Below, piece after piece: positions 18,101-57,500 of a stretch of DNA of 64,000 nucleotides (the first letter of the stretch is position 1; the number at the start of each line of letters is the position of its first letter). A program made the translations under genes and the position numbers. Source of the DNA: a virus; IMG/VR virus record IMGVR_UViG_3300025110_000002, positions 4,124-68,123 of that record. One strand, 5' to 3'. The notes under the pieces are model-generated. The model was not told the origin of the DNA. It did no database searches and saw only the letters and a list, made by a program, of their open reading frames with translations.

Positions 18101-19330
18101 AAAAACGATTGTAACCTGCGTCCAAATGTTCATTTTAATCGCATCAGGTGCGGTTTTTCTATACCAAGTACCGCTGCTACCAGCACTCACTCCTATTTCT
18201 AATGAATGATCTGCGTTTCTTGACATGTTAAAATTAGGTGAACCGGTAGTGTAATTAGAAAATACTATTTTATAGCCACCTCCCGTAGCTGCTGTTGGCA
18301 TATACCAAAAACTAAGGGTGAGTGCAGTACCTGCAAATTGATTTGAAGCCCCAAGAGATATTCTACTAGCACTTCCACCAGTAAAAGTTGCAACACCATA
18401 ATTATTTTGTTTAAAAGTAACATTAGATGCTGTGCCGTTATAAGTTGTACTACTTCCTGATGTATCATTAGAATTTCCTTGAAATTGATAATCCGCAACA
18501 AGATTAGTAGTAATTAAAGTGTCAGAACTTTGTTTATTTACTGCTTTTGGTACCCATATACCGTGAACTAATTCGCCAAATTCATTAGGAAGTAGTGCAC
18601 TTCCATCTACAAATATAAAATTACCATATGTAGCATCAGCACCGTAACCAGGACTAAATGCCCAATCATTAATTCTTTGATTAGTACCAAACTGAAAAGC
18701 TTGATTATCAGTTAAATTACCTACACTTTCCCAGTGCAGTGGTATGCCGTTCGCATAGGCTTTTATTTTTTCTCTATCCATTAGAATACTACTGTCTAAA
18801 GAAATAACAAAATTATACCACCCTGCTTTATCTATAAATGTGGCTTGTGAAGTAAAGTATACTCCATCAATCCTAATATATAATTTATGGTTAGTACCGG
18901 AGGAATGTAAAAGTATTGCAACTAGGCTATTTGAGGAGGAAGTTCCTGATGTATATAAATACCTGTTTGAAGAAGTAGTTTTATGTATTTTAACCCAAAG
19001 GCTAAAAGTGCCTTTTGTATTTGTAAACACCGGAGCTGTAGTTAAACCAGGTTCAAGTACTTTAACACTGTTATGGTTAGATGTTATTCCATCCATGTGC
19101 AACGATTCCCCTAACCATCCTGTCTCTTCCGTGGTGGGATTTATTTGAAATAATGTTTGTCCTCTAAGTTCTGACATAGATCTACCCGATACGGTATCAC
19201 CATCACCAACAGCGGTAAATTTTACAGTATTGTTATCCCCTAAAGATACATTCGATTCGTTTGAATCTGCCTGTAACGTTGCATTTACGTCATCATTTAA
19301 ACTTATTTGACCGGAATTAGGAATTGGCAT
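12185..19330 (-). CDS. Giant receptor-binding adhesin with multiple LamG/concanavalin A-like domains, a SPRY domain and two copies of a YTGNG/GFQP beta-module
   Basis: 2381 aa. Repeated WYH/WHH-V...YING...G-I-Q-R-Y...LT...NY LamG signatures and the SPRY motif SGKWYYEV. N-terminus is MPIPNSGQISL, and it overlaps the fibre gene stop. Confidence 0.8.
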   Translation of the reverse strand: MPIPNSGQISLNDDVNATLQADSNESNVSLGDNNTVKFTAVGDGDTVSGRSMSELRGQTLFQINPTTEETGWLGESLHMDGITSNHNSVKVLEPGLTTAPVFTNTKGTFSLWVKIHKTTSSNRYLYTSGTSSSNSLVAILLHSSGTNHKLYIRIDGVYFTSQATFIDKAGWYNFVISLDSSILMDREKIKAYANGIPLHWESVGNLTDNQAFQFGTNQRINDWAFSPGYGADATYGNFIFVDGSALLPNEFGELVHGIWVPKAVNKQSSDTLITTNLVADYQFQGNSNDTSGSSTTYNGTASNVTFKQNNYGVATFTGGSASRISLGASNQFAGTALTLSFWYMPTAATGGGYKIVFSNYTTGSPNFNMSRNADHSLEIGVSAGSSGTWYRKTAPDAIKMNIWTQVTIVFDSSQSAEADKTKIYINGGDFYHFNNTGSGGTGNWLDTSNTLYIGDWDHQTGYTDTSKFGEVQIYTSALTAANVLQNYNATKHKYFYGLNGWHFNLNNTDTGSVITPGSDLKLHLDAGDWDADGTDETSFSGTAWSDKSGNSNNGTVSGATYSTDNGGCFSFNGSSHYVKINDSIFNNSSDTDITWSCWLRLDSTWTSGFRSPVGSTASNGYRGAIAINMYGTGSGITTSLERYYNNTQRYASVYGTSAGLYTYAVDTWYHQTIVYDASTNNATIYINGSQIGSSYNLNTVNSQTTVNETSIGMYGSGYSNNGWAGDIAQIRCYDKALTAQEVVQNFRATQGHYGVLSLADISGNAKGGIANGTNLTGADHTGDKSNVSYATLSENAKSTSVTLSDGGHALTHTVSGWRGGVGTRAVSSGKWYYEVKITSVNTSGATANSAYFMAGWQKAEAVGDWDDSPYSTYNNVIVVFGSGSFGIISSGTSPHYGTSNINGGSVFALNDVLGIALNADTGAVQIYKNGSALGSAVTLTADEYVVFYSKWSSTHDNATFNFGARGFAHTPPSGYLALSSDNIPTANNVDPVNKKKPSDYFSTVLYNGNGGTTKSITGVGFQPDLVWIKDRDDTENHAIFDSIRGENLWLHPNTNAAETDYSGQYGLLGFEEDGFKVGNGTALNAAENYVAWCWKASGSEETLTGSGSNNSVIASVNDDAGFSILKYEGTGSSGMKIRHGLSAAPAMVMVKKRDANPAAWMVWFHQGLTDFDYYLTLNTGDQQTDSVGTGFSAAPDANLLTFGTSGIGNDNNLRYVAYCWRNVDGYSKIYSYRGNGSSVGPVVYTGFKPAFLMIKRADSSANWRILDNKRSETNILSGELYPNLTNTEGDYNAVNFLSNGFQIVNSDTSYNASGGTYIYMAIAEDPAKYSQGFGQELRDVEKFLEKGTGSTEYPANHFQIARYTGTNAKQKIELNFSPGLTWFKALSDARTHSLVDSVRGFNGSSARVLQSDSNSAQWDSAYINSFDADGFTISGSENYINNSSHNYISWNWKAGDTQVTKKPTYTSSGILTSNLALHYNFADSNTYSGSGTTVYDLTSNDNDATLNNSPSWVDKENGNYFDLDGSNDFIECTTIKDDVDDGQSVSMEVWFKCSSSQSGEGIICGFGGSYGDAGMDIGVKPSTGLLYISQGSGSYGVGYDIRDNKWHHAVMTMTSSAKSLYLDGILIDSSAATNRGTFPNDFHIGTWADDAYNGYYYKGAVGQVRIYTAELTQSQIRANYDATRTLYQGVGTTGNVLQTGLLNNIDVDSFSSYDPNSFGITNKVAVFNGSSSLIAIGSPIPNTDTDTAISAWVRLDSGVSSHMHITGTGVTTALSEAPFRATLSYVSSNTFKLFALRQVGGTYYLAGTSGLNNVTILPDVWYHVVWSYDATGRQLSTFLNGVAIDSNVAMSTTGSSVNNSTTVIGSFRSTSGPFFDGSIDTLRMFSSVLTADQAKILYNETSSTTGTLNPTGISNCIALYNFNSDSGTAVDDVSTNFDGTASNVTFEEDNTTSHRIKDQTSNNLSLGSLVNTTINESNSWGTSLKYDGTGDYVTLPIGLGRTATQDVTREFWVKVDDYPGSGDKDTLFYCGDMSANQYYETIAVRPDGTLQYQERAGNSSTNGLNNGDGLSTPADNLILHENEWVHVAYTISGGTKTIYINGKLAISKTFSDTKVNNSAYGGSLGSFRGSTVASFQGEIAQFRSYTSALTRAQIKANYDATRPQFFTALTHSLVSVNEKAGFSIVKYTGNATSGATISHGLSAAPNLIITKRLDSTGDWLVYHSSLGATKYLIMNVDDRAYTVSNVWNDTAPTSTVFSIGNYAEINTSGGQYIAYCWTSILGYSKIGEYTGKTAGVTIYTGFQPRFIMIKAFEGSYDEHWAILDAARGSEKVINPNRTNAEGDSALNTFTTSPTSFSFPHQNTADAMLNENGVKYIYMAFA

Positions 19331-22300
19331 CTTTCATCTGTTTTTCAAGGTTATTAACTTTTTGTGTAAGTTCTTTTACAGCTTCAATTAAAACTGCATT
19401 TAACTTTTCATAATCCACTGTCTTAACTTTTTTACCACCTAATAATTCTTTTTCATAAACTATATGTGGTATTACTTCTTCTACTTCTTGTGCTACAACA
19501 CCTAAATCGTGTTTCCCTTTTCTACTTCCATCATTCCAATCATATTCAACACCTCTTAACTTATTAACTGTTTCAAGTGCATTTGGTATTGTTTCTATGT
19601 TGTCTTTAAGAGAAACATCTGAAACCCCTGTTGAAAATGCTACTACATCGCCGTCAACTAATAAATCTTTATTTGTAGAATCAATTTCCATTACAACTGT
19701 AGCACTACTACTACCAAACGCCCACTGATGTTTAGTTGATGTAGATGCATAATAGTTATTACTATCATAACCTATTTGTTGTATATCAGCCCTACAATCG
19801 GCATCCACATCTAATGTATTTGAAGTAAGAGTTAATCCCTTACCAGCTATAATATTTGTGGCTGTAATAAAGTTAGCTTTAGTAATTGTTTTGTGAGCGC
19901 TTGCTGTAGCATCATAGAATAATATTTCATCTGCGTCGGCTATAGTTGTTTCAACAGTTAAATCATTTATTGCAAGGCCAATATTACCAGTTTCTGTAAT
20001 TGTACCACTTAAACCCGTAGAAGTACCAACAGATCTAACACCAGCACCTACATATATAGTACCGCCCATACCTGAATGAGAAGAACAGTAATAATACAAT
20101 GTCTTAGGTGTATCTTGTTCAACTGTAATTTCTGTAACTCCTGATACAGAAGTGTCTACACCTGTAGCATAAGCACTTCCAGAATTATGTGTTCCATCAC
20201 TTGTAGTGGAAAATCTAAAAGGGTGACCAGTAGGGTGTGTAAATCTATATTTAAATCCAGGCATTAAAGTTACATCAGCTTGTTGCGTGCCGTCTATAAA
20301 ATATTTATTAGAACCACCTACGTTTTGAACTGTAACTGCTATATCATTTCTAAAATATTTAAGTGATATTTCGTCTGCTGCTTTTCTTGATTCAGTTGCA
20401 CTATTTTGTAATATAAATTCTGTTGTTCCAGATATATCAGCAGTCATATCGGTTAATTCAGAAAAATCTAAAGCAAATGTTATTGTTTCATTTGAACTTT
20501 GATCTGTTGTAAATGCATCACCACCTGATAATCCAGTACCTGCTGTAAGTGTTATTGTGGCATTATTTGCTGCTGAAGGTATTGTAGGGGTGCCTGTAAA
20601 GTTTCCATAAGCTAAATAATATGAACCTTCTTGACCATCTAAAGTATCAGAGTCAATACCGTTACCCGTACCCTCATCTGCTGTTGTAAGTATTTTTACT
20701 TCTGCTCCAGCTAAACCAGCATACCATCTGTCTTGTGATTCATTCCATATCAGTGATGCATCATCGCCAGTACTTCCTCTTTCCACATGAATACCCCCAT
20801 CTGTTCCAGTTGAAGCATTTTTATTAAGTAATATAATATTATCATTAATAGTAACTGTTTCTGTATTTACACTGGTTGTAGTACCACTAACTGTTAAATC
20901 ACCTGTTACAGTCAAATTACCTGATGTAGTTATAGTAACATCCGTAGCATCACCTATCGTTAAACTTTCTGTTATTTGTGGTAACCTAGCTGTCAAGTTA
21001 GCAACATTAACATCAACATCTGAATTAGTTGTAAAGCTAAGATTACTTTGTAAATACGATTGAAGAACACTAACAGCCATTTTCTTAACAACCCCATCAT
21101 CACTTATTGCAAATTCATCACTACTAGCTAAACCAGATGTTAATGCTGCTTGACCTGAAATAATATCATCACTTAACATTGCATGATGAACCGTACCAGC
21201 ACCTATAGTTGTAGTAATATTCGTTGTGCCACTACCGGATACATCACCTGAGAGTGTAATGCTCTGATTACCAGTTATATAGTTTAATCCTGTTACAAAA
21301 GTATGTATTTGGTCTGCAGTAGCTAAATTAGTGCCTCCATCGGCTATAGCACCTGTATTTATAGCGGTTGATGTGATACCTGTTACATGTCCGTTACTAT
21401 CTACGGTTAAATCTTGAATATATGTAAGACCTGAATTATCAGCCGAAGATGCTGCAGAAATATTTGGATGAGCTGAAGCTAATGTAAAGTTAGGATATGT
21501 ACCCGTAATAGTCATATTACCTCCATTACTAAATGCAACTGTTTGATCGTATTTATTGGTACTGCCTTGTGCTATATTATCAGTTGTTATAGTTGCATTT
21601 TCAAATACACCTGTACTGCTATTATATTTTAACAATTGATTATTAGAAGCACTTGAAACAGTAACATCTGATAAATCACTAAGTTGTGCAGCAGCAGCAG
21701 CGCCCCCCAAAGCTATAGCAGAAACACTTCTATGTATTCCACCTGTTAAAAATTTTGCTTCAGTTGCAGACGATAAGTTTGTAGCATTACCTCTTACTAT
21801 AAGAGCACCTAAATAGATAGCCTGATCTGTTGTATTACTTGACTCTGTAAAACTTTCAAGCTGATATTGTTCTTCTGCTACAGAAAGAGATATATATTCT
21901 TCTTTACCATAATAAGCAACAATAGTATTTATTTCATTTGGAAAATAATATAATCTTTGTACAGAAAATTTAGTTGCTGTCATAGAGGCAAGTGTTCCTG
22001 AACTGTCATCATATTTAGTAGGATCAATAGCTGTATAACCAGCACCATCATTTGTATCTAGTGTATGTCCTGTAGAACTATCTGCATAATATCTATGTAT
22101 AACTGCGTCTGTTTTTGCAGCATCTGAAACAAGAGATGGATTATTAGGATCTGAAGCGTAGTTTCTACCAAATGCCCATGCAACCCCCGCTGCTCTATTA
22201 AGTTTTAAATTAGATCCATTTGCAGTAACTTTATGACCAGATTTTTTCATCGGCCCAAAAATTCTTGAAAATTCTTGTAATTGAGGAATTGCTCCATATG

Positions 22301-24191
22301 CAGTTACAGGGAATGTTTTTACAAAATCTATAGTTCCGCTTGTATGAATTATTGATCCTATAATAATATTATGCGCTATTAACGCGTCTGTAAATGGAGT
22401 TGTTTGTTGGTTAACACTTCCTGCTGAATCTATATATACCCAAGTATTTAACTGCTTATCGCTACCGCTATTTAAACCGGAGCATGTAAATGTTTGTTGA
22501 GACCAAGCTACGTGTTTTATTTCTGGGTGTGGTTCCCCTGAGCCTCCCTCTTTATTTAAATCATTAACTATACCAGTCCCCGCTGCAATTGTAACTTGGG
22601 TGTTATTAGCTTTAGTAAGTGCACCACCACTTGTAATACCAGACGGAATATTTTCAGTAACATCATCTATAGATAATTCTTTATCATCATATCTAAAATG
22701 TAACACATTAGTAGAATCTTTAGCTTTTAAAAATATTGCGTTATCATTGGATGTTGTGCTAGCTGAATTAAAAGTTAATACATTATCTACTGTCATATTA
22801 TCAGCAGAAGCATCTGCTGTAACAGTTAAATTATTAGCAACATTTAAGTTATTACTTATAGTTACATCATTTGGTAATCCAATTGTCCATGTTCTGTTTG
22901 TGGTTAAATTTTGCGCCGAAGTAGGTGACGTTTCTATTTCATTTGTAGTACCCGAAATAGTTAGTGTAGTATTTTGATCAAGTATTGTTGGTTTGTTTTT
23001 TATAAAAGCATCATCATTTGTGTCTGATTCATTCCAATCAACTTGTACGTTTTGCTCTGCATTAGCGGCTATATTTGTAAGTTTTGTTCTTTCAGCTCCA
23101 GTAATTATAGCTCCTGATCCAGCACTTGTTACGTCAGCAAGATCTGTAACATCGTGATTACTAAGTACCGTTAAATCTGTTGGTTTATTTTGTATAAATG
23201 CATCTGAACTGTTGCTGCTTTCATTCCAGTTAGCTTGAACGTTAACCTCGGCACTTGCCGCAATACCGTTTAATTTTGCTAATAATGTATCTGTAAAATC
23301 ATTTGCAGATAATCCTTTACCAGATACTGTAGCAACTTTACCATCTAATGCCGTTTGTAAACCAGCTATGTTAGATATAGCTAAATTGTCTAGTGTTGAT
23401 TTATTTGCTTCAATAAAATCAACAACTTCTTGTAAAGAGTCTAAATCTACATTATCTGATGTTAATAAAGTATTTATTGTATCAATTAATGCTTTTAATG
23501 TTTTGCCTTGTTCTGCAGACAATGGTTTTCCAGTTCCACCAGTTGTTAGATCATTTACAATATCTGTATATAATATTCTATCATTAATAGTTGCAACAGA
23601 GATCCTTTCTGCGTCGGTTATAATAGCACCTGAGCCGGCTGAAGTTACATCGTTTAACTCAGTTACAGAAAAAGAATTTAAATTTTTAAGGTTATTACCT
23701 AAAGTTGAAATATAATATTCTGAATCTTTTATTAGTTTTCCACTTGCATCTTGATTTGAAACGCTCAATACTTTATAAGTTCCAGATGTTGAATCAGTAA
23801 CAGAGTTAACTCTATATATACCAAAATTATTAGTATCTCCTTTTTTTGTTATTCTAACATCATATCCAGCAAGTACATCTATGTAATTTGATACATCACT
23901 GTTTTGTAAATTTTTATCACTTAAGTATATAGTTTGTATGTCTGAAAAATTAGTAGAGGAATAACTTCCGGTACCTGTTGTAATAATACCAAATTGATCT
24001 CTGTCTACATTATAATCTAATGCTTTAAATACAATACCATCAAATTGCTTAATAAAGTTTTCGCTATTAGCAAGATCTAATAAACTTTGTACTGAAAAGT
24101 TTTTTGTTATGTTATCGCCAGAATTGGACCCGATAACTTTGTCGTTAAGATTTAGATCAACGTCTTGATCGTATGTAAATATTCTTGCCAT
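19317..24191 (-). CDS. Long tail fibre with C-terminal peptidase S74 intramolecular chaperone
   Basis: 1624 aa, T/S/G-rich, with repeats (DVTSAGSGAIIT.AER x2, NVQ..WNE...DAFI.NKPT x2). C-terminus SDVSLKDNI...GVVAQEVEEV...VDYEKL. Confidence 0.85.
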   Translation of the reverse strand: MARIFTYDQDVDLNLNDKVIGSNSGDNITKNFSVQSLLDLANSENFIKQFDGIVFKALDYNVDRDQFGIITTGTGSYSSTNFSDIQTIYLSDKNLQNSDVSNYIDVLAGYDVRITKKGDTNNFGIYRVNSVTDSTSGTYKVLSVSNQDASGKLIKDSEYYISTLGNNLKNLNSFSVTELNDVTSAGSGAIITDAERISVATINDRILYTDIVNDLTTGGTGKPLSAEQGKTLKALIDTINTLLTSDNVDLDSLQEVVDFIEANKSTLDNLAISNIAGLQTALDGKVATVSGKGLSANDFTDTLLAKLNGIAASAEVNVQANWNESSNSSDAFIQNKPTDLTVLSNHDVTDLADVTSAGSGAIITGAERTKLTNIAANAEQNVQVDWNESDTNDDAFIKNKPTILDQNTTLTISGTTNEIETSPTSAQNLTTNRTWTIGLPNDVTISNNLNVANNLTVTADASADNMTVDNVLTFNSASTTSNDNAIFLKAKDSTNVLHFRYDDKELSIDDVTENIPSGITSGGALTKANNTQVTIAAGTGIVNDLNKEGGSGEPHPEIKHVAWSQQTFTCSGLNSGSDKQLNTWVYIDSAGSVNQQTTPFTDALIAHNIIIGSIIHTSGTIDFVKTFPVTAYGAIPQLQEFSRIFGPMKKSGHKVTANGSNLKLNRAAGVAWAFGRNYASDPNNPSLVSDAAKTDAVIHRYYADSSTGHTLDTNDGAGYTAIDPTKYDDSSGTLASMTATKFSVQRLYYFPNEINTIVAYYGKEEYISLSVAEEQYQLESFTESSNTTDQAIYLGALIVRGNATNLSSATEAKFLTGGIHRSVSAIALGGAAAAAQLSDLSDVTVSSASNNQLLKYNSSTGVFENATITTDNIAQGSTNKYDQTVAFSNGGNMTITGTYPNFTLASAHPNISAASSADNSGLTYIQDLTVDSNGHVTGITSTAINTGAIADGGTNLATADQIHTFVTGLNYITGNQSITLSGDVSGSGTTNITTTIGAGTVHHAMLSDDIISGQAALTSGLASSDEFAISDDGVVKKMAVSVLQSYLQSNLSFTTNSDVDVNVANLTARLPQITESLTIGDATDVTITTSGNLTVTGDLTVSGTTTSVNTETVTINDNIILLNKNASTGTDGGIHVERGSTGDDASLIWNESQDRWYAGLAGAEVKILTTADEGTGNGIDSDTLDGQEGSYYLAYGNFTGTPTIPSAANNATITLTAGTGLSGGDAFTTDQSSNETITFALDFSELTDMTADISGTTEFILQNSATESRKAADEISLKYFRNDIAVTVQNVGGSNKYFIDGTQQADVTLMPGFKYRFTHPTGHPFRFSTTSDGTHNSGSAYATGVDTSVSGVTEITVEQDTPKTLYYYCSSHSGMGGTIYVGAGVRSVGTSTGLSGTITETGNIGLAINDLTVETTIADADEILFYDATASAHKTITKANFITATNIIAGKGLTLTSNTLDVDADCRADIQQIGYDSNNYYASTSTKHQWAFGSSSATVVMEIDSTNKDLLVDGDVVAFSTGVSDVSLKDNIETIPNALETVNKLRGVEYDWNDGSRKGKHDLGVVAQEVEEVIPHIVYEKELLGGKKVKTVDYEKLNAVLIEAVKELTQKVNNLEKQMKDANS

Positions 24192-26416: not shown

Positions 26417-26673
26417 AATACGGCAATAACGTCTTGTTCTTTAATTACAAAAAACAACTCATCATTAAATTCGATCCCATATCCGGCATGTTTATCATAA
26501 TATATCATGTCTTTACCAGATAGCCCTTCTACTAAATTGCCTACAGATACAACAGAGGCCTTTTGGTATCTTACATCGTTTTGATGTTGCTCAGCTAAAA
26601 TTAAACCGCTTTTGTTGGGTTTTGGTTTTTCTTTTAGCTTTTTAATTATTATGTATCTATTTACAGCTCTCAT
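26413..26673 (-). CDS. groES: Co-chaperonin GroES
   Basis: Start MRAVNRYIII overlaps the GroEL stop (ATGA). Contains KSGLILA, VVSVG and IKEQDVIAVL. Confidence 0.88.
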   Translation of the reverse strand: MRAVNRYIIIKKLKEKPKPNKSGLILAEQHQNDVRYQKASVVSVGNLVEGLSGKDMIYYDKHAGYGIEFNDELFFVIKEQDVIAVL

Positions 26674-28220
26674 TGTTCTCTCACATTTGCGATTACACAA
26701 TTAGCTGACATTATAGTTGTGGCAACTGAAGTGGCATTTTTTAAGGCTGTTTTTGTGACAAGCACTGGATCAATAATACCCTCCTTAACTAAATCACAAG
26801 ATTTACCAGTAACTACATTTATCCCTTTACCTTCTTCGTGATATGGGCCATATTTTATACTTGCGTTTTCTAATATTGTTTTATAAGGAGATTTTATAGC
26901 TTTAAATAAAATTTCCTCCCCTATATTTGTAGCTTCAAAATTATCAGATGCGTTGTGCAGCGCAATACCAGCTCCTGGAACAATTCCTTCTTTAAGAGCT
27001 GCTTTAACAGCATATATTGCGTCTTCTACTCTATCTTTCTTTTCTTTTAATTCTACTTTACTATTGGCACCCACATATATTATTCCTACTCCACCGGATA
27101 GCATTGCTTTCCTATCTGTTAATTTTTTTAATAAATAAGGATTTTTTTCTTCTTTAGCTCTTTTTTCAATTGCTTGTATCCTTTCTTTAGTTGAATCATT
27201 TATAGCATTAGTTGTAATTACAGTATCTTTTTCATCAGTAACAACCTTAATTGCTTCTCCTAAAACAGATTCATCAATCAAATCTAAATCATCACCTAAT
27301 TCTTCATTAATTACTTTAGCCCCTGTAACAGCAGCTAAATCATCTAACATTTCTTTTCTTAAATTAGCAAAACCAGGAGGATCTATTACATTGGCTTTAA
27401 TATTACCTTTTACTTTATTCATTATTAAAGCGGATAAAGGTTGTGCACCAACAGGTCCTATAATTAAAATAGATCTTTTATTTTTTATAGCATACTCTAA
27501 AACCGATTGAATTTTTCTTATAGTTTCAATTTCAGTATCTACAAGAAGAATTAAAGGATTTTCAAGAATAATTTTATTTTTTTCTTTATCGGTTATAAAG
27601 TGTTGAGATTTTATACCAGAATCAAATTTTACACCATCTACAATTTCGACATAAGTTTGTTCATCGTCTGATTCCTCCATTAATACAACACCTTCATTAC
27701 CTACTTTTTTATAGGCATCAGCGATTAAGTCGCCTAAAACTGTGTCGCTATTAGTAGAAATATTAGCCACATGCTTTAACATATTTCCTTTAACTTTTAC
27801 AGCAACTTTATCAAGATATTTTATTACTTTTTTAGTAGCATTATTTATACCTTCTTTTATTAATCTTACATCATTAATTTTGCTGTCCCAATATTCTTTT
27901 AATATGGAGTGTGCCAGTACGGTCGAAGTTGTCGTACCGTCACCGGCCTCTTTAACTGTTTGCTGTGCTGCCTCTTTTATGAGGGTTGCTCCAATATTTT
28001 CTGTGGCATCCATAAGGATTACGCTGTTTGCAACAGTAACTCCATCTTTTGTTACTATAGGTCTTCCAGTGCCGTCTTCATATATAACGCATTTACCGGA
28101 AGCGCCAAGCGTTGAAGAAACTGCTTTAGACAGCTTCTCCACACCGGCCATGACTTTTTGTTGTGCAAGATCACCAAAATGAAGATCTTTTACAATTTCA
28201 CTAGGATTATTAAATTCCAT
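26670..28220 (-). CDS. groEL: Phage-type chaperonin GroEL
   Basis: VTKDGVTVA, AGDGTTT, DRVEDA, GIVPGAG and GIIDP motifs. No C-terminal GGM tail. Confidence 0.95.
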   Translation of the reverse strand: MEFNNPSEIVKDLHFGDLAQQKVMAGVEKLSKAVSSTLGASGKCVIYEDGTGRPIVTKDGVTVANSVILMDATENIGATLIKEAAQQTVKEAGDGTTTSTVLAHSILKEYWDSKINDVRLIKEGINNATKKVIKYLDKVAVKVKGNMLKHVANISTNSDTVLGDLIADAYKKVGNEGVVLMEESDDEQTYVEIVDGVKFDSGIKSQHFITDKEKNKIILENPLILLVDTEIETIRKIQSVLEYAIKNKRSILIIGPVGAQPLSALIMNKVKGNIKANVIDPPGFANLRKEMLDDLAAVTGAKVINEELGDDLDLIDESVLGEAIKVVTDEKDTVITTNAINDSTKERIQAIEKRAKEEKNPYLLKKLTDRKAMLSGGVGIIYVGANSKVELKEKKDRVEDAIYAVKAALKEGIVPGAGIALHNASDNFEATNIGEEILFKAIKSPYKTILENASIKYGPYHEEGKGINVVTGKSCDLVKEGIIDPVLVTKTALKNATSVATTIMSANCVIANVREQ

Positions 28221-35701: not shown

Positions 35702-36172
35702 ATGAACAGTAAAATAATTAAAAAAACAGTAGAAAATACTTTTAATACTAAAATAGACACACGTTCAAGAGAAAGAGATTTAGTATATATAAGAAGTATT
35801 TATTATAAGCTTTGTAGAGATTTCACAAGGGAATCATTATACTTAATTGGAAAAAATGTTAATAGAGATCATGCTACAGTATTACATGGCCTTAAAGTTT
35901 TTGATCATATTATTGATAATTTTTGGGAAAAAGAATTAATGGATAAATATTTAGGTATTAAAAAAAGGATACAAGGTAAAGTTAAAATAGAGGTTAAAAG
36001 TTATGACCCTGATAAATTTTATAGAGATAAATATAGAATTAAATTATTACAAAATATAAATATGTATCGTTTTACAAAAAATTGTATTAACATACTTGAA
36101 CAAAGAGAATTTAAATATTCAAATAAGTTAAAAAAAGAACTTAATGATATAATTAATGATAATCAATACTAA
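35702..36172 (+). CDS. Stand-alone DnaA domain IV (C-terminal HTH) protein
   Basis: SRERDLVYIRSIYYKLCRDFTRESLYLIGKNVNRDHATVLHG matches the DnaA signature R...R....YL......SL..IG..F.RDHTTV.H. There is no AAA+ domain. Confidence 0.85.
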   Translation: MNSKIIKKTVENTFNTKIDTRSRERDLVYIRSIYYKLCRDFTRESLYLIGKNVNRDHATVLHGLKVFDHIIDNFWEKELMDKYLGIKKRIQGKVKIEVKSYDPDKFYRDKYRIKLLQNINMYRFTKNCINILEQREFKYSNKLKKELNDIINDNQY

Positions 36173-36178
36173 ATTAAA

Positions 36179-36385
36179 ATGGGAAATTTAGAACAAATAA
36201 GAAGAATAGAAGGATTAAGTAATGCAACAGAATTAATTGAATCTACATTTAAAGAAATCTATAATGATTTAATAGAAGATGGATTTGAAACAGATGAGAT
36301 AATACATTATATAGAAGCTAAAGCAAACAAAACCCTTCTAAATATGCATTTAAAAGAAATAGAAGTAGAAGCAATAATAGTTTAA
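36179..36385 (+). CDS. Early hypothetical protein
   Basis: 68-aa acidic ORF. Confidence 0.55.
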   Translation: MGNLEQIRRIEGLSNATELIESTFKEIYNDLIEDGFETDEIIHYIEAKANKTLLNMHLKEIEVEAIIV

Positions 36386-36396
36386 TTGCTATACAC

Positions 36397-36500
36397 AGGG
36401 AAAAGTCTGGAAGCCGAAAGGTAGAAAGGTGATATAAACAGATAAAAGAGTATAAGACTATCATAGAGCATCTCTAACATTCCAGTTTCACCCGTTCCCT
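36397..36500 (+). ncRNA. Candidate structured ncRNA with a pseudoknot, family unknown
   Basis: Non-coding gap with pairings AGGGAA/TTCCCT, CTGGAA/TTCCAG, GCC-GAAA-GGT, GGTGA/TCACC and TAGAG/CTCTA. Confidence 0.5.
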
Positions 36501-36512
36501 AACTTATACAAG

Positions 36513-36584
<72 letters not shown>

Positions 36585-36599
36585 CTAAATATATAAATT

Positions 36600-36869
36600 A
36601 TGAAAAATAAATATGATATGAAATATATTGATGAAAGAATAGAAGGAATGATTATTGCTAAACTTTCTTATTATAGATTAAGAGTTAGAGATTTAGTAAA
36701 TAAACGTCATGCTGCTAATTATCCTGATTTACATTATATTTCTGTTACAGGAGCAATAAGAGACCTTAGGGTGTGGATGCAAATGGCTAAATTAATTGAA
36801 AAAGCTTATGATGGATTTGTTCCATCAGAACCTTACGCGATTTATATGGCCAAAAAGCTTACAAATTAA
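36600..36869 (+). CDS. Hypothetical protein
   Basis: 89-aa ORF whose stop lies within repeat copy 6. Confidence 0.55.
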   Translation: MKNKYDMKYIDERIEGMIIAKLSYYRLRVRDLVNKRHAANYPDLHYISVTGAIRDLRVWMQMAKLIEKAYDGFVPSEPYAIYMAKKLTN

Positions 36870-38479: not shown

Positions 38480-39090
38480 ATAGAAATTTAGCATATTTAA
38501 ACAGCCGTCGACTAATTTATAGACGAGGACCCTTAACTGACACCCCATCTGAAAAATTTATTTGGGGTGACTTTTATAAGGATGGAACTTATCAATGTTA
38601 TGAGTTGTTTAAAAGTAAAGCCAAAATAACATCGTATAAATCATTTAAATGGCATATCTTAGTGCTGTGGTATTTAAATGCTAATATGAATTTGAAAGAA
38701 ATTACTGAATTAGCTATGTTTCTTGCAAATAAAGAAAATGGGTTTGTAAGCATAACTTTATCTCCCACAACAATACAATACATTGTAAATGAGGTTGATA
38801 AAATAGATCTTGAAAGGCCACCTAAAAATAAATTAAGAAAAATAATTTTTAAAGATCGATCAGGATTAGATAAATTAGAAAAATTAAGAATTGTAGGAAA
38901 ATTAATTGGTAAAAAGAAGAAAGCAGAGCCCAATGATATATATGAAGCTATGATGTATATTAACCATGCTGAACAAAAAATTACTATCAATTCAATAGCT
39001 AAAGTATTAAGTGTATCAACTAGAACAATATATAGGAATATAACTAAGGAAATTAGAGAAGAAAAAATATTGTTAAATGAAGAAATATAA
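38473..39090 (+). CDS. HTH DNA-binding protein (regulator or replication initiator)
   Basis: C-terminal HTH ITINSIAKVLSVSTRTIYRNI. First gene of the replication block. Confidence 0.7.
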   Translation: MSYRNLAYLNSRRLIYRRGPLTDTPSEKFIWGDFYKDGTYQCYELFKSKAKITSYKSFKWHILVLWYLNANMNLKEITELAMFLANKENGFVSITLSPTTIQYIVNEVDKIDLERPPKNKLRKIIFKDRSGLDKLEKLRIVGKLIGKKKKAEPNDIYEAMMYINHAEQKITINSIAKVLSVSTRTIYRNITKEIREEKILLNEEI

Positions 39091-39820
39091 TATACAAAAC
39101 TATATAAGACTAAAAAACGAATTATATGTTTATGAAAATTCCTCTAAAAAACAAAATGAAAGAGAGATACTAATTATATCAAATATAAAAATGGTAGAAA
39201 ATATAGCAAGAAAATTTTCAACATCACAGCAAGCTTCCGGCGTTTTAGATATTACAGATCTAATACAAGAGGGAAGTATAGGATTAATACAAGCTGTTGA
39301 TAAAATTGATTGGGAAAGAATAGACACATCTGATGACCCAAAAAGATCACTTAATAGTTTTTTAAGTAAAAGAATTAAAGGGGCTATACGGCGCGCTATA
39401 GATATAAATAGAGGTAATATACGTATACCTGAACATAAATTAAATGATATAAGAAAAAATTCAGCTAAAGAACAAGCAATGGTGCAAGCATTTTTTAATA
39501 GTATTTTTTTAAGTATTGATAATCCTTCACCAGATACTAGTATGGTATATGAAATACCAGATAAAGCAAAAGAGTATAATTTAGATATTTTAAATAAATA
39601 TTTATTATCTATAATGGAAACACATCTAAATATAAAAGAATATGATGTGTTAAGAATGAGCTATGGTTTAGACTGTGATAAAATGACCGCTAAAGAAATA
39701 GCCGCTAAATTAAATGTAAAAGGGATAGCCTCTTATGTAAGAATATCCCAAATAAAAAGAGAGGCAATAAATAAATTAATAGAAACCGTAGATCCAGCGC
39801 AAGTAGCTGATTTACTTTAA
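39077..39820 (+). CDS. Sigma70-family RNA polymerase sigma factor
   Basis: Region 2 DLIQEGSIGLIQAVDK...RIKGAIRRAI..IRIP and region 4 VLRMSYGL...EIA...RISQIKREAINKL. Confidence 0.92.
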   Translation: MKKYNIQNYIRLKNELYVYENSSKKQNEREILIISNIKMVENIARKFSTSQQASGVLDITDLIQEGSIGLIQAVDKIDWERIDTSDDPKRSLNSFLSKRIKGAIRRAIDINRGNIRIPEHKLNDIRKNSAKEQAMVQAFFNSIFLSIDNPSPDTSMVYEIPDKAKEYNLDILNKYLLSIMETHLNIKEYDVLRMSYGLDCDKMTAKEIAAKLNVKGIASYVRISQIKREAINKLIETVDPAQVADLL

Positions 39821-51560: not shown

Positions 51561-54500
51561 TTAATATTTTTTAATTATTCGATCTACTTTTCTTAAAAGT
51601 TTATCTATATCGGGAGCCGCTTTTGGCTCTTTTATATTTAAGTCCCATTCGCTATATCCTAAAGCTAGAAAAATTGATTGCCATAGTTCTGTTTCGGGTT
51701 TCATAGCAGTATTTAAATGATCCATTTTTAATATTACTCTATCAAGAGGTAAATTGGTGCCAGCAGATACAATTTGTCCAAAAGCTAAAAATCCTGGATT
51801 TTCTAAACTAAATCCTTCTGTATATACTTTTTCTTTGCTTTGTTTATAAGTAAAAGTTCTACTAGCAGCTAATAATTTTCTTAATTTTGAATCTATAGGA
51901 GGAGAAAGTGAAACAGACTTTAACGCAACTCTAGTATAGTCTGATCTTTTTGCTTTAGACTGTCTAATTCCTTCTAATACCATATTTTTTATAACTGTTG
52001 CAACAGCCCCATATACCCCTGTACCCCTAACAAAACTATCAATACTACCGTTAAGTAATTTAGAATACCTTCTTTTTTCATCATCTTCTGTTGTATCATC
52101 AAACATCAATGCAAATAATGCAGATTGTAACGAGTTAAATATAATATTCTGTATTACGCTATAATATACAATTTTACTAATATTTGCCTTCCAATCTCCG
52201 CGTTTATTAATTAAATCTAAAAATGCTTTTTTAGTTAATCTAGTATACTGCATAGGGGTGTTAGCGAAGGCTAATATAAGGCGCCCTAAACTACCAGCTT
52301 GTTGCATTGAAATACGGTCTGGACGTGCAGACTGTTGTGTCTCTTCAGCAATTTCCATAAAGTCTGTAAAAGCTTTTTCTTGTGCTTCTTTTTGAGACAT
52401 ACCTTGTTTTACATAAGTATCTATCCTATTTCTATAAAATGATGCACCACCAGAAGCAATTGCAAATGAATCCGCAATTTGTGTAGGTGTAAAACCAAAT
52501 TGAAGTATTGCACTCAACATTGCTCTTACTTTATTTTTTGATGTTTTAGCCGAGTTAGCAATTTCATCTGCATTGACATCTATTTGTAATCCAGAACGTC
52601 TTTGTTTTAAAAAGTCTGAATTAAATAAAAATGTAAAGTCTTTTACAAATTGTGGGAAATTAGCTAATGCCATTCCAGCTTTTAATGGATTATTATCACT
52701 CCAATTTATAAAGTTCACAGCTGATATAGTCTGTAATAAAGCTGATCTAGTATTAAAGAACATAATTGTTCCTACAGAATCATTAGTCCAATCTAAAAAT
52801 ATTTTTTCATTTTGACTAGCACTTGATCTTCTATTCCTACCAGTTTTCATCCTAGTAATAATATCTTCTAACGCTACAACATATCCATTACCATATAAAG
52901 CTCTTAATTTATCTTTATTTTGATCACTAAATACTGTGTCTATATTTTCTTTCCATTCTTCTAAAAATTCTGCTCTTCTTACATCATTTACATAACCAAC
53001 AAGATCTGTTGTTATATCTCCACTATTCCAATTTTCAGTAGGTGATGGATAACCTTCAGGATTTAAAACCATTAATCTTTCTGCAAAAGCTTTTAATAAA
53101 GGATCATTTCTAACAATTTTTAAATTTTCATTTATTTCTTTTTTAAGGATACCTTCTATTTCCATGCCTTGTTTAGTCCACATGTATATTCTTATAGAGT
53201 CTTGGTTTGTAAACCCAGATTCATTTACTTTGGTTAATCCTATAGGAACATCTTTTGATGCCTCTTTTTTAAGAAGCGACCACTCCCTAAGCGAATTTTC
53301 TTTTTCTCTTTGCCAAGCTTGTATACCTTTAGAGAAAGGTCTTATTAAGTTATCTTCGTACCACTGTCTTTGTTGGTCCCCTACTTTTCCTTTCCCAAGT
53401 GTTACATATAATAATCCTAAAAAGTCTTCTGCAGAATATGGAACAAAAAATTTGTTTCTTCCTTTAGATTGGCCTACAAGTTTAGCTTTAACAGGAGAAA
53501 ACTTTTGATACCAAGGTGTACCAGTAGTACCTTGTATTAATTCGTTAAATTGTCTACTTAATCCTTTTGACGCTTTAGAAGTAAGTTTTTCTTTTAATAT
53601 TTCTGCATCAATTTTATTTTCTATATTAAATCTAGAAGGCTTTACTTTTTTTGGGTCAAAAACAGACATTTCATTTCTAAGAGCAGTATATATTAAATTG
53701 TTTTCTCTATTCTTACTAGTCCCACTCCCACTCGATTTTAAATAAAAATCCATTTTCAATTCAATATCAAATCTATCAGCCTTTTCAATATTTAAAATAT
53801 TTCGACCTATAAAATAAGTTCCATAGCCATCTCCGATATGTATATAAAAATTATCTTTATTATTATAATGATTTTCAAGGCTTATAACAGTAATTTTTAT
53901 ACCTTTCCCAAACGCTTTTTTATAAAATTCTTGTTTTTCTAACTCTTCTAAAGTTTCTCTTTTTATAGTTCCTTTTAATGGAAATTGAGTTTGTGGCCCT
54001 TTAAAATCTGGATTAATTTTTTCTTCCATTTCATTAATAAAATTCAATGCTTCACGAACAGCTGGCATGTTCCTTTCAAAAAAAGCTTCAAATAATCCAA
54101 CATTTGGCAAATCTTTTCTATCAACTATTTTTTTGTTACGTATAAAGTCTATTCTAGGGTCTTTAAGATCTGTGCCAGAAAAATAAACCCGAGAACTACC
54201 ACCCCCCATTCTAGCTGTTATACTTTTTTTAGCTTCTAAATAAAGAGGTTTTTCTTTCCCTTCTTGTTTAAATTGTAAATCTGGACTGTTATTATCATAT
54301 CCAGCACCTCCGCCTAATACAGGTAACCCGTATTCTCGCATTTGTTTCCCGAGCACTTCTTCAAAAATTAATCCACCAAAAGTTTCTCCTTTAATAATAC
54401 CATCTTCCCATAATTTAATAGTAAAATCTTTTACAAAATCAAGCTGATCTTCAGCGAATCCTTTAGGTTTATAGTTATTAAAACGATCAGAAATTATTTC

Positions 54501-57500
54501 GTCTTCTTTTAATATTTTTGCAAATTCAAAAGCGATATTTGAAAATTCTGATGAGGTTAATCCTTTCGATGCTTTAGATCTATATCCTCTGTCTATTTTT
54601 CTTGCAATTTCCTGTATATAAGATTCTGCAACGCCGATACCCGATAATTCTTGAATTTCTCTAAATCTATTCATGATAGATTCATTTTTCAAAATTTCAT
54701 TGGTAGCATCAAACGCAAGTTCAACTCCTATCTCTTCTGTAAGTGCTATTTTACGGTTTCCTAATGCAGATTTTTTATATGCAGTTTTATCTGTAAAATA
54801 TTCAACCCATTCTTTTTCACTAATTTTTCTTTTCTTAAATAAAGGTTTACCTTGCCCTAAAGTTTTTACATCTCTTCCTTTTTCAACGGGCAATTTTTCT
54901 CTCATTTGAACACCATCTTTATCAAGTAAAGGTTCTTTAAAAGCTTGAAATCTTTTATTAATAGTAGACAATGGTAAATTGTCATATATAGCTTCAAAAT
55001 TTTCAGTTAAAAAATTTTCATAGCCACCAGTATCATTAATAAACTTTACTATTTCGGGTTTTAACTTTGTTCTAAAAGTTTTAGTTAAAGCCGCATTGAA
55101 AGCTTTAACACTTATATTAGGTAATTTTGTACCAAAAGCCAATTCTACAGCCTCCAAAACTTTATCTGATAACTCAGGATCAACACCTAATTTACTAGCT
55201 AAATCATCTTTTTTAATTTCTACTGTTTTTTCTTCTAATTCAAATGCACTTTCTGTAGCTGTGTCTGGTGTTCCTTTAAGAGTATCAACATCTAACATAA
55301 ACTCTTTACCTAATAATTTTTGAGCTTGTTCAATAGCTCTTCTTCCTAAATATTTATTTATATAACCAGCCAGCGGAGCTCCTTGTGCTTTTGCTTTAGT
55401 ATAATCCATTATTAATCCTAACAAACCTCTTTCGTCAAAAGTAATTGCATCTTTTAATTCATTAAAATCAAAATTTGGTGTGTTTTTATAATTATTTGTA
55501 ATCTTATTTAAAATTGGATCAAATAATTCTATAATTTCCATTGCCCCTTCAGCTCCTTTTTCATTATATATATCTGTAACCTTTTGGGAATCTACTTCTC
55601 TTTTACTTGCTTTGGATATTATCCCATCTATTGCCTGAGATTCATTTAAAATTTCATCACTAATTTCAATACCTTCTTGCATTGCTTTTATAACAGCTCC
55701 ACTTGTTTTCCCCTTTCTTACAGCATGACTATAATCTTTTATAAAATTAAAAACATCAGCTCCGTCTTCAAATCTAATTTTTTTCCACCCTATATCTTGT
55801 AAAATTCTTCTTAAAATATCACCTAGTTTAGCTAAAAACCCTTCATTAGGTTTTTTTATAAGAGGATTATTATATATATCTGAAATAGCATTAAATAATT
55901 CTTCTGCTCTTGCTTGTTCAGTATAATTAGGGTCATTTTGATATTGTGTAAGAATTTGATTTAAAATAGACCCTTCTTTAAATAAATCTGGATCTATTTT
56001 CATTAAATGATCTTTTAACAAAGTAGATAATTCAACAACCGCTGTAGTTTTTCCGTTGTATAATGTTTTATATAAACCATTATGCAATATTTCATGGCCC
56101 GCTACAGTAACATTCCCTGTTTGTCCAGCTACTTCCATATTCATTACCATAACCGCACTGCCATCTGCTTTAGGATCAGATACCCTACCTGAATCGGTTT
56201 CTTGAGCATCTTTAATTCCAAATTTTTTGGCTGTTTCAACAAAATCTTTACTATTCTTTACTTCTATAATTTTTAATTTTTGATTTAAAGCACCTGCAAA
56301 TCTTCTGCCTTTAAGAACTTGATCTGTAAGTTCAGCTGTAACATAAATTTTTAATTTTTCTTGTCTAATTTCTTCTAATCTAGCTTCATTTCTTTTAGCA
56401 AAGGTTTTATCAACATTTTTATTTTCATTAATTATTTTAGATTCTTCTATTAATAAATTAATTAATTTTTGTTTAGCTCCACCAACAACCGAAGGAGGGA
56501 CTTTCATATTAGCATTATCAACATCACTTATAGTGGACAGTTGTTTTTCACCTTGTTCTTTGGTAATTTCACCTTTAATTACTGAAGCTTTTATATTTTT
56601 CTTTAAGTCTTTTAATATATATGATTGAGAATTAACATCGCCAAAAGATGCAACTCTATTAGCTAAAGCTGTTGTTTCTTTTATAGTATAAGAAGCAGCC
56701 TTAACACTAAAAGGTAAAAATCCACCAACTATACCTCCCTGTGCTCCAGCTTGTTTTATTTCATCTAAATCAATATATTTTCCTGAATCTCCAATAGAAA
56801 ATCCTTTAGATATTTGAGAAGTTAAAGTTTGAAAACTTTCTGTTAAATATTCAACCATATAACCCCTAGCCACAGCTTTACTAGACCCTTTTAATCCTCC
56901 TTGTTTTACAAATCTTCTAATACCATCTTTTACAATAGATCTAATAAGTGCTTTACCGGGTTTTGTTATCATTGTTCCTACAATTGTAGTCGCCCCTGTA
57001 AATTCTAAAGCAGATTGTATTGTGGCAGACGCCGCAGCAATTCCGCCATCTCCTTCCCCAGCTTCTAAATAATTTAAAAACCCTTCTTCTGAAAACTCTT
57101 CTCCGTTAGCTTCCATTTTTGCGATAATGGTATCAAAATATGCATTACCGTATTCTTGCGCAAAAATACCAGTACCGAAAGTAAGTACAGCTATAGGAAG
57201 CTGGATTGCTTGTTCTCCAACTAATAAAGCTAAATCTCCCCAACTCTCCGGCATTAATCCATCTAGTTTTGCTTTTTGAAAAGCTTTTAAATCTTGTTCT
57301 ATTTCTTTTAAATTAAGATATTTATTTAAAATTTTTTCTTTTTGTTTTATTATTTGAATTTTTGCTTGTTTTACAGTAACTGGCCTAGGTGGTCTTGTAT
57401 CATAAGTTTGAGTACCAGGTGTGCTAGACAATGTATACGCTACTTCGGCATCATCTTTATCTTTAATTGAATCATTTAGTCTTTTAAGTTCGCTTGCATC

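What the first reader, a model, noticed from the sequence alone, without database searches (positions are those of the whole stretch)
36397..36500. Compact pseudoknotted ncRNA candidate 12 nt upstream of the initiator tRNA
Seen: a non-coding island, less AT-rich than its flanks. P1 is 36397-402/36495-500, P2 is 36407-412/36480-485, a GAAA-tetraloop hairpin spans 36413-422, then a purine linker AGAAA. A crossing helix GGTGA 36428-432/TCACC 36488-492 and a hairpin at 36464-476 follow. The strand order (P1, P2, hairpin, PK ... P2', PK', P1') matches the P1-P2-P3-P4 core of RNase P RNA, but the canonical P4 sequence is not in that position. Established: phage tRNA regions host structured RNAs such as theta (HDV-like) ribozymes, GOLLD and ROOL. 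By eye this fits none of them. Inference: a possibly new ribozyme or structural RNA linked to tRNA processing. The helices are short, so chance pairing is possible.
Basis: partly seen in the sequence, partly recalled or inferred. Interest (0 to 1): 0.72.

Follow-up and report, generated by a model that had tools for sequence, protein, structure and literature searches.

The report
New pseudoknotted RNA in phage tRNA islands
The stretch just upstream of the phage's initiator tRNA is a real, conserved, pseudoknotted small RNA that matches no described RNA family and whose function is still unknown.

Summary
Folding energy alone is not better than chance (z -0.69), but comparison with other sequences settles the question. 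I collected 30 distinct copies from 27 sources: viral contigs, metagenome contigs and the window.

- **Structure.** P1, P2 and the crossing helix are 95.1% paired, and 12 of 19 pairs show changes on both sides. The crossing helix is paired in all cells, in five compensatory versions. P3 closes in 29 of 30 copies.
- **Variable parts.** P3 ranges from 10 to about 75 nt. The smallest copies are 73 nt.
- **Known families.** Rfam 15 gives no match. The resemblance to RNase P is in strand order only.
- **Context.** The element sits in tRNA/RNA-gene islands of one clade of marine crAss-like phages, plus one unrelated phage where it lies ahead of an ORF. 21 of 30 copies lie 3-12 nt upstream of a tRNA, 7 directly follow a mini tmRNA-like domain, and 2 pairs are tandem.
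- **Distribution.** The nearest complete relative lacks both the element and the tRNA.

My best reading is an independent stable small RNA matured with the tRNAs. A ribozyme role or a cis-acting role remains open.

The parts
36397..36402 (+). P1, 5' strand (AGGGAA)
   Evidence: Pairs with 36495-36500. 7 of 8 P1 pairs show changes on both sides across 30 copies. Examples are GGAGG/CCTCC, GGAAGTG/CACTTCC, GATTAAG/CTTAATC and GCAGAAA/TTTCTGC.
36403..36406 (+). J1/2 (AAGT). G36405 may pair with C36493, and T36406 is then unpaired.
   Evidence: G-T-C before P2 is invariant in 30 of 30 copies. The G/C pair is GC in all 30, so it never varies and is not tested by covariation.
36407..36412 (+). P2, 5' strand (CTGGAA)
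   Evidence: Pairs with 36480-36485. The helix is 98.3% paired. The second pair is UA in 20 copies and AU in 7, and one A-U is C-G in L109b.
36413..36422 (+). P3 hairpin (GCC-GAAA-GGT), variable in length
   Evidence: 29 of 30 copies have at least 3 closing pairs, with 9 different helix sequences. Segment length ranges from 10 to 75 nt.
36423..36427 (+). A-rich junction (AGAAA)
   Evidence: GAAA is invariant, but the search patterns partly required it.
36428..36432 (+). Pseudoknot helix, 5' strand (GGTGA)
   Evidence: Pairs with 36488-36492. 100% of cells are paired in 30 copies, and 3 of 5 pairs covary: GGTGA/TCACC, GATGA/TCATC, AGTGA/TCACT, GGAGA/TCTCC and GGCGA/TCGCC. This helix was not part of model R1.
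36433..36442 (+). Conserved single-stranded junction (TATAAACAGA)
   Evidence: Identical in 29 of 30 copies; L109b has TATAAAAAGG. This conservation is partly forced by the search patterns.
36443..36477 (+). Variable, optional insertion ('P4').
   Evidence: Absent in L036, L043, L058, L091, L098 and L182. At least three unrelated insert types occur.
36478..36485 (+). CA, then P2 3' strand (TTCCAG, 36480-36485)
36486..36492 (+). TT linker, then pseudoknot 3' strand (TCACC, 36488-36492)
   Evidence: GTTTC is invariant.
36493..36500 (+). CG, then P1 3' strand (TTCCCT, 36495-36500)
36501..36512 (+). 12-nt spacer, the leader of the tRNA
   Evidence: The spacer is 3-7 nt in the other 20 copies that are followed by a tRNA.
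36513..36585 (+). Initiator-type tRNA-Met(CAT)
   Evidence: ARAGORN. Rfam tRNA at 70.1 bits.

Best explanation
Window 36397-36500 (+) is one member of an undescribed family of small pseudoknotted RNAs, 73 to about 160 nt long.

**Shown**
- The RNA folds into a closing helix P1, then P2, then a hairpin P3 of variable length.
- A 5-bp long-range helix follows. Its 3' strand lies between the 3' strands of P2 and P1.
- Conserved single-stranded junctions hold these helices together.
- Selection acts on the RNA of the + strand. G-U intermediates and compensatory changes occur, and the core is far better conserved than the neighbouring proteins.
- The element is a separable cassette in the tRNA/RNA-gene islands of one clade of marine crAss-like phages.
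- It also occurs ahead of an ORF in one unrelated phage.

**Inferred**
- The element is transcribed with its neighbours.
- It is set free as a discrete stable RNA by the cuts that mature the flanking tRNAs: RNase P a few nucleotides downstream, and 3' processing of the upstream tRNA or tmRNA-like domain.
- P1 seals both ends.
- It then acts by itself through the invariant junction pocket, most likely by binding a host or phage factor as a decoy or regulator.
- The partner is unknown.
For: **Structure.** Searches support the fold by covariation.

**Selection on the RNA.**
- Core columns are 80% identical on average across copies (minimum 53%), with 28 of 75 core columns invariant.
- Flanking proteins of the same contigs are only 30-92% identical in amino acids.

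**Independence from any one neighbour (30 copies).**
- Followed by tRNA-Met in 18 copies.
- Followed by tRNA-Gly in 3.
- Followed by another copy of the element in 2.
- Followed by a short ORF-like region in 2.
- Followed by an ORF in 5.
- It stands between a tmRNA-like domain and a tRNA in L022, L047 and L098. There nothing but the element itself would remain after processing.
- It persists where tRNA-Met is missing (L005, L045, L101, L086, L182).
- Two pairs are tandem, and the two copies of each pair are each internally compensated (L079, L175).

**Accessory cassette.** The closest complete relative, G155 (68,154 bp), has neither the element nor a tRNA in the syntenic 6.5 kb. Its sequence diverges from the window's right at the element's 5' edge.

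**No expression platform.** No terminator-like site was found after the element in the window or in L182.
Against: - No transcript data exist. Discrete processing and stability are inferred from context only.
- All but one of the contigs belong to one phage clade. The context tallies are therefore largely shared synteny, not 30 independent observations.
- A core this conserved is also typical of ribozymes and ligand-binding RNAs.
- In L182 the element lies in what looks like a 5' leader ahead of an ORF. That fits a cis role as well.
- No candidate partner protein was found among the neighbouring genes.
Confidence: 0.4

Rival explanations
1. It is a new class of small self-cleaving or processing ribozyme. 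It would cut the polycistronic tRNA-island transcript next to tRNAs, as theta ribozymes do at tRNA 3' trailers.
For: - The fold is a compact pseudoknot with variable peripheral hairpins around a strongly conserved unpaired core.
- It sits 2-5 nt after a tRNA or tmRNA-like domain in 8 of 30 copies, and 3-12 nt before a tRNA in 21 of 30.
- Tandem copies and a 5'-leader copy occur, as they do for known small ribozymes.
- Precedent: theta ribozymes lie next to tRNAs in phages of Bacteroidota (PMC10879173; abstract and passages read).
Against: - There is no match to any ribozyme family in Rfam 15, even at E <= 10.
- The strand order differs from HDV-like, hammerhead, twister and pistol folds. That comparison was made by eye from recalled architectures.
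- No cleavage site can be named.
- A 5'-OH leader on a tRNA would still need RNase P.
- Part of the core's invariance was forced by my search patterns.
Confidence: 0.2
2. It is a cis-acting RNA element of the transcript. It could be an exonuclease-blocking end structure left after tRNA excision, a processive antitermination or leader element, or a ligand-sensing domain.
For: - It always lies a few nucleotides upstream of the next gene.
- After an RNase P cut, the 3' strand, which runs through P2', the pseudoknot and P1' in one stretch, would be the 3' end of the upstream RNA with only a 3-12 nt tail.
- In L182 it follows a promoter-like site and precedes a Shine-Dalgarno sequence and an ORF.
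Against: - Where a tmRNA-like domain or a tRNA lies directly upstream (8 of 30 copies), there is no upstream mRNA to protect.
- No terminator or alternative-pairing platform is conserved.
- The one alternative helix that RNAalifold proposes (AGGTG/CATCT) exists in one insert type only. It is broken in L094, where the pseudoknot is compensated.
- The L182 promoter match is 9 of 12, and such matches are no more frequent than in shuffles (2 found, 3.1 expected).
- Simple hairpins would be enough for end protection.
Confidence: 0.25
3. It is a miniature RNase P-like RNA that helps to cut the leader of the adjacent tRNA.
For: - It has the same strand order as the RNase P core: P1, P2, P3 hairpin, A-rich junction, then a long-range helix whose 3' strand lies between P2' and P1'.
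- It is adjacent to tRNA 5' ends in 21 of 30 copies.
Against: - No RNase P family scores, even at E <= 10 in a 351-nt search.
- The CR-I-like string is the P1 strand and is replaced in other members.
- The long-range helix is 5 bp, has no bulge, and covaries freely.
- Nothing corresponds to the specificity domain, and members can be as short as 73 nt.
- 9 of 30 copies have no tRNA downstream.
Confidence: 0.03
4. The pairing is chance, or the element is a DNA-level repeat (a mobile element or a protein-binding site) with no RNA function.
For: - Folding energy is not better than that of shuffles.
- The helices are short.
- The element behaves as an insertion relative to a close relative.
Against: - Compensatory changes occur in all four helices, with G-U intermediates that pair only on the + strand.
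- Hairpins vary in length at fixed positions.
- The core is much better conserved than the flanking genes.
Confidence: 0.01

Closest known systems
RNase P RNA catalytic core (P1-P4)
   Same: The order of strands is the same: P1, P2, P3 hairpin, A-rich junction, then a long-range helix whose 3' strand lies between P2' and P1'. It also lies next to tRNA genes.
   Different: - No Rfam RNase P match.
- The conserved CR blocks are absent.
- The look-alike of CR-I is the covarying P1 strand.
- The long-range helix is 5 bp and has no bulged U.
- There is no specificity domain.
- Members are 73 to about 160 nt long, far below RNase P RNA sizes (recalled).
Theta (HDV-like) ribozymes of gut phages (PMC10879173; abstract and passages read)
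   Same: They are small pseudoknotted RNAs lying directly beside phage tRNA genes, in phages that infect Bacteroidota.
   Different: - Theta ribozymes have the HDV nested double pseudoknot and act on tRNA 3' trailers.
- This element has another strand order and lies mostly 5' of tRNAs.
- It is marine, not from gut.
- It has no HDV-family match in Rfam.
- Self-cleavage has not been tested.
Stable RNAs of unknown function in the phage T4 tRNA cluster (species 1 and 2; recalled, no call)
   Same: They are non-tRNA small RNAs encoded among phage tRNA genes and presumably matured with them.
   Different: No sequence or structure relation was tested. T4 infects E. coli, whereas this family is in marine crAss-like phages.
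THF-I riboswitch (architecture recalled)
   Same: In both, P1 and P2 are separated by a short junction, and the 3' strand of a pseudoknot fills the junction between P2' and P1'.
   Different: - No Rfam THF match.
- The pseudoknot's 5' strand is a junction here, not a hairpin loop.
- There is no expression platform.
- It usually sits before tRNAs rather than folate genes.
Unnamed candidate structured RNAs of IMG/VR (PMC10690425; abstract and passages read, supplements closed)
   Same: That catalogue was mined from the collection that holds 10 of the contigs used here (L005, L006, L170-L172, L174-L176, L182 and the window's own record). It lists 8,495 candidates, some of them tRNA-like or near tRNAs.
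   Different: I could not check whether this motif is among them. Nothing in the text I read describes a pseudoknot upstream of tRNA-Met.

Membership tests
RNase P RNA | Match to an RNase P covariance model | tested here: not met
   No RNase P family appears at gathering score or at E <= 10 over 36300-36650. None appears in L005, L006 or L109 at E <= 1.
RNase P RNA | P4 helix built from conserved CR-I and CR-V sequences, with a bulged U | tested here: not met
   The long-range helix is 5 bp with no bulge, and 3 of its 5 pairs covary. The CR-I-like string is the P1 strand and is replaced in L170-L176, L182 and L109b.
RNase P RNA | P1-P2-P3-P4 strand order | tested here: met
RNase P RNA | Specificity domain and CR-II to CR-IV | tested here: not met
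   Members of 73 nt have only 16 nt between the pseudoknot's 5' strand and P2'.
RNase P RNA | Cleaves pre-tRNA leaders | not testable with these tools
   This needs an in vitro assay.
HDV-like / theta ribozymes | Nested double pseudoknot in the order P1, P2, P3, P1', P4, P2', and a family model match | tested here: not met
   The covariation-supported order is P1, P2, P3, PK, (P4), P2', PK', P1'. No HDV-family match was found.
HDV-like / theta ribozymes | Self-cleavage at the 5' edge | not testable with these tools
   This needs an in vitro assay.
tRNA / tRNA-like structure | Cloverleaf recognised by ARAGORN or by the Rfam tRNA model | tested here: not met
   Only 36513-36585 is called as tRNA.
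Riboswitch (any Rfam class) | Aptamer model match plus an expression platform | tested here: not met
   No aptamer family matches. No terminator-like site follows the element in the window or in L182.
tmRNA | tRNA-like domain with a tag reading frame | tested here: not met
   The Rfam tmRNA matches cover the neighbouring 79-96 nt domain in L005 and L109 (31.4 and 37.4 bits, below the gathering score of 47). They do not cover the element. Reading frames after the AGTC block are not conserved between members, judged by eye on the sequences.

The most novel reading that the evidence does not exclude
The element is a new class of small natural ribozyme. It would either cleave itself or act on the adjoining tRNA precursor, and marine phages would use it to mature or regulate their own tRNA islands without the host's processing enzymes.
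Probability: 0.17. Interest if true: 0.9.

Novelty: categorically new. Interest (0 to 1): 0.7.

Why it matters
- **New fold, strong support.** Very few new, strongly covarying, pseudoknotted RNA folds of tRNA size are still being found. Each earlier one turned out to be a ribozyme, a riboswitch or a specific protein or RNA binder.
- **An unexplained setting.** This one sits in the tRNA islands of marine crAss-like phages. It lies beside an initiator tRNA, a tRNA-Gly and a mini tmRNA-like domain. The role of phage-borne translation RNAs in that setting (codon supply, or defence and counter-defence) is unresolved.
- **Directly testable.** A 73-nt natural minimal form and five compensatory versions of the pseudoknot give ready-made constructs for cleavage assays, probing, structure work and pull-downs.
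- **Catalogue value.** Even if it proves to be only a stable RNA, it adds a defined family to the largely uncatalogued non-coding RNAs of phages.

The label 'categorically new' means only that it meets the defining features of no described family. The function is not known. An unnamed entry in a published catalogue cannot be excluded.

Tried and rejected
**Tests that gave no support**
- Folding energy: z -0.69 on the + strand and 0.23 on the - strand. It does not discriminate.
- Rfam: five searches found only tRNA, sub-threshold tmRNA next door, and noise (miRNA, CRISPR-DR19 on the - strand at E 6.3).
- RNase P homology: rejected, as set out in the membership test.
- HDV-like, hammerhead, twister, pistol and hairpin ribozyme folds: compared by eye from recalled architectures. 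Strand orders do not fit.
- tmRNA tag reading after the AGTC block: the frames are not conserved, judged by eye.
- Alternative nested helix AGGTG/CATCT from RNAalifold: it exists in one insert type only, and it is broken in L094, where the pseudoknot is compensated.
- Promoter ahead of the L182 copy: a 9-of-12 match, no more frequent than in shuffles.

**Searches that found nothing or led nowhere**
- One search was a wasted viral scan because my pattern was off by one base. L008-L010 are chance hits.
- Metagenome scan: 20 of 110 loci are true members.
- Viral scan: 8 of 10 are true.
- Viral scan: 5 of 11 are true.
- Species-representative genomes: 0 of 49 pattern hits are true.
- Model R1 in 4 genomes reached through my loci: 0 matches.
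- Model R1 in 151 genomes of the family of G001: 1 match at 30.6 bits. On inspection it lies in an ORF-like stretch without the conserved blocks.
- Cultured phages: blastn finds only the tRNA. The 73-nt member finds nothing. The L182 member gives one chance 29-nt hit.
- R1 finds nothing in Cellulophaga phages phi4:1 and phi14:2 or in Flavobacterium phage immuto, apart from an 18.3-bit partial hit at E 0.09 that I discount. It also finds nothing in the relatives G155 and G156.
- Neighbouring proteins gave no RNA-related partner.
- RNA runs: no RNA holder was listed.
- Papers: four searches found no description of this motif. The supplements of PMC10690425, which may list it, were closed.

**Caveat on conservation**
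- Every homologue was found with a pattern that fixed part of the junction.
- The invariance of GAAA..GATATAAA.AG is therefore partly by construction. For L182, the same holds for C.GTTTC.

Full report
**Observation**

- P1: AGGGAA 36397-402 with TTCCCT 36495-500.
- P2: CTGGAA 36407-412 with TTCCAG 36480-485.
- Hairpin: GCC-GAAA-GGT 36413-422, followed by the linker AGAAA.
- Crossing helix: GGTGA 36428-432 with TCACC 36488-492.
- Local hairpin: 36464-476.

The stretch lies between the stop codon of a 68-codon ORF at 36383-85 and tRNA-Met(CAT) at 36513-36585. That tRNA has initiator marks: a 1:72 mismatch and GGG/CCC in the anticodon stem. The stretch is richer in G+C than the DNA upstream of it, 0.39-0.45 against 0.16-0.26.

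Folding energy alone is not beyond chance. The + strand gives z -0.69, and 46 of 200 shuffles fold as well. The - strand gives z 0.23. The case therefore rests on comparison.

**Homologues**
- Exact blocks from the element found L005 and L006 in viral contigs.
- A pattern that fixed only junction bases and left P2, P3 and the pseudoknot's 5' strand free returned 110 metagenome loci. 20 of them are true members.
- A 19-nt junction pattern found 8 true members among 10 viral contigs. Six were new, with different P1 sequences.
- The same pattern found 0 true members among 49 hits in species-representative genomes.
- A last viral scan added L182.
- A covariance model (R1) also picked up a diverged second copy in L109 (24.7 bits).
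- In all I have 30 distinct copies from 27 sources.
- Caveat: all were reached through patterns that fix part of the junction. Conservation there is partly by construction, and the family is surely wider than sampled.

**Structure**
- MAFFT alignment of 28 copies, not fitted to any structure:
  - 92.2% of cells pair.
  - 39 cells show changes on both sides.
  - 0 of 500 shuffles reach the covariation score.
  - The crossing helix is paired in every cell.
- Model-fitted alignment of 30 copies:
  - P1, P2 and the crossing helix are 95.1% paired.
  - 12 of 19 pairs change on both sides (54 cells).
  - 0 of 500 shuffles reach any of the five measures.
  - Slid controls reach at most 64.2% paired.
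- The crossing helix was not in the model, so its columns are not biased towards pairing. It occurs as GGTGA/TCACC, GATGA/TCATC, AGTGA/TCACT, GGAGA/TCTCC and GGCGA/TCGCC, with G-U intermediates in 7 copies.
- P1 occurs as AGGGAA/TTCCCT, GGAGG/CCTCC, GGAGA/TCTCC, GGAAGTG/CACTTCC, AGAAGTG/CACTTCT, GATTAAG/CTTAATC and GCAGAAA/TTTCTGC.
- P3 closes with at least 3 pairs in 29 of 30 copies, using 9 helix sequences. Its segment length runs from 10 to 75 nt.
- G-U pairs exist only on the + strand, so the functional molecule is the + strand RNA.
- The segment 36443-36477 is an optional insertion. It is missing in six members and of at least three unrelated kinds in the others.
- The minimal natural form is 73 nt.
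- 28 of 75 core columns are invariant. They include G-T-C before P2, GAAA before the pseudoknot, GATATAAA.AG after it, and GTTTC.

**Context**
- Of the 30 copies, 18 are followed within 12 nt by tRNA-Met and 3 by tRNA-Gly(TCC). 2 are followed by another copy, 2 by a short ORF-like region and 5 by an ORF.
- Seven copies directly follow a 79-96 nt tmRNA-like tRNA-like domain, and one follows a tRNA-Met by 2 nt.
- Tandem pairs occur in L079 and L175. The two copies of each pair carry different, internally compensated helices.
- 26 of the 27 loci compared (the window apart) share proteins with the window, at 30-92% amino-acid identity. L182 shares none.
- L182 carries the element between an exonuclease gene and an ORF with a Shine-Dalgarno sequence. 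It has no tRNA in its 5.8 kb.
- The window's phage looks like a marine crAss-like phage of Bacteroidota:
  - It has a crAss muzzle-protein match.
  - Its GroEL is nearest to those of Flavobacterium and Cellulophaga phages.
  - It carries its own sigma factor and an Erf-like protein.
- The closest complete relative, G155 (68,154 bp, with a flanking protein 70% identical), has no element. It also has no tRNA in the syntenic stretch.
- The two genomes share the sequence up to the base before the element and then differ. The element with its tRNA therefore behaves as an accessory cassette.

**Known families**
- Rfam 15 has nothing for it.
- Theta ribozymes share the setting but not the fold.
- A riboswitch reading lacks an expression platform.
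- Four literature searches found no description.
- The IMG/VR catalogue of 8,495 unnamed candidates (PMC10690425) might list it, but its supplements were closed.

**Mechanism**

The fold, the strand and the cassette behaviour are shown. Everything about function is inferred.
- **Preferred reading (0.4): an independent stable small RNA.**
  - It would be released by the cuts that mature its tRNA neighbours and would act through its conserved junction.
  - The reason is that the element stands alone between tRNA-like genes, occurs in tandem, and survives where the tRNA is lost.
- **Self-cleaving or processing ribozyme (0.2).** This stays plausible because of the conserved core and the position next to tRNAs.
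- **Cis-acting end-protecting, leader or antitermination element (0.25).** This stays plausible for the same reasons and because of the L182 context.
- **Literal mini RNase P (0.03).** Unlikely.
- **Chance pairing (0.01).** Excluded by the covariation.

**Verdict**

This is a real RNA family that fits none described so far. Its structure is well supported and its function is open, and it is worth bench work.

Noticed in passing
L005:1042-1120 (-); L109:2097-2192 (+); also L022, L045, L047, L098, L101 just upstream of the element: A mini tmRNA-like tRNA-like domain of 79-96 nt. It has an acceptor stem with a G-U third pair and a T arm that covaries (GGAGG/CCTCC, AGAGG/CCTCT, AGTGG/CCACT), but no tag region. 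It scores 31.4 and 37.4 bits on Rfam tmRNA, below the gathering score of 47, and ARAGORN does not call it.
   Followed up: partly
L109:2570-2610 (+); middle of the tmRNA-like domain in L005, L045, L101: A hairpin with a conserved 20-nt loop (CAAAGTTCGAAAGTACACTA) and covarying stems (GCTGA/TCAGC, GCTAA/TTAGT). It occurs either inside the tmRNA-like domain or on its own. It looks like another RNA module of these islands.
   Followed up: no
L109:2330-2430 (+) and downstream of L079:429-531 (-): A conserved region of about 100 nt between the element and tRNA-Met. It is closed by TGGCTAGT/ACTAGCCA and can also be read as a 26-codon ORF. Whether it is an RNA or a small protein is undecided.
   Followed up: no
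L006:5624-5687 (+): A partial duplicate of the element (P1 5' strand, P2 5' strand and a 44-nt P3) sits directly in front of the complete copy, with no 3' half of its own.
   Followed up: partly
L025, L079 and L109, just upstream of element copies (sequences): Further hairpin-like modules recur in the islands. They have the form GGGNCC...GGTGAGGNCC, with a repeated CTGTGCA motif. The islands hold several uncharacterised RNAs.
   Followed up: no
window 36386-36397 and 35702-36172: The 12 bases before the element (TTGCTATACACA) are shared with relatives that lack the element (L001, L062). They loosely resemble a DnaA box (consensus recalled). Two genes upstream lies a 156-aa protein with a DnaA C-terminal helix-turn-helix domain (Pfam E 1e-11).
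   Followed up: no
window 2-955 (-), 26670-28220 (-), 39077-39820 (+), 12185-24191 (-), 51561-58364 (-): The phage has a crAss muzzle-protein match, its own GroEL, a sigma factor, and three giant ORFs of 1,624-2,381 aa. The 2,267-aa ORF has no Pfam match.
   Followed up: partly
long-P3 members (L006, L022, L079a, L093, L174-L176): The extended P3 arms share an internal loop with TGTAGATA on one strand and GTAG on the other. This may be a recurrent tertiary motif.
   Followed up: no
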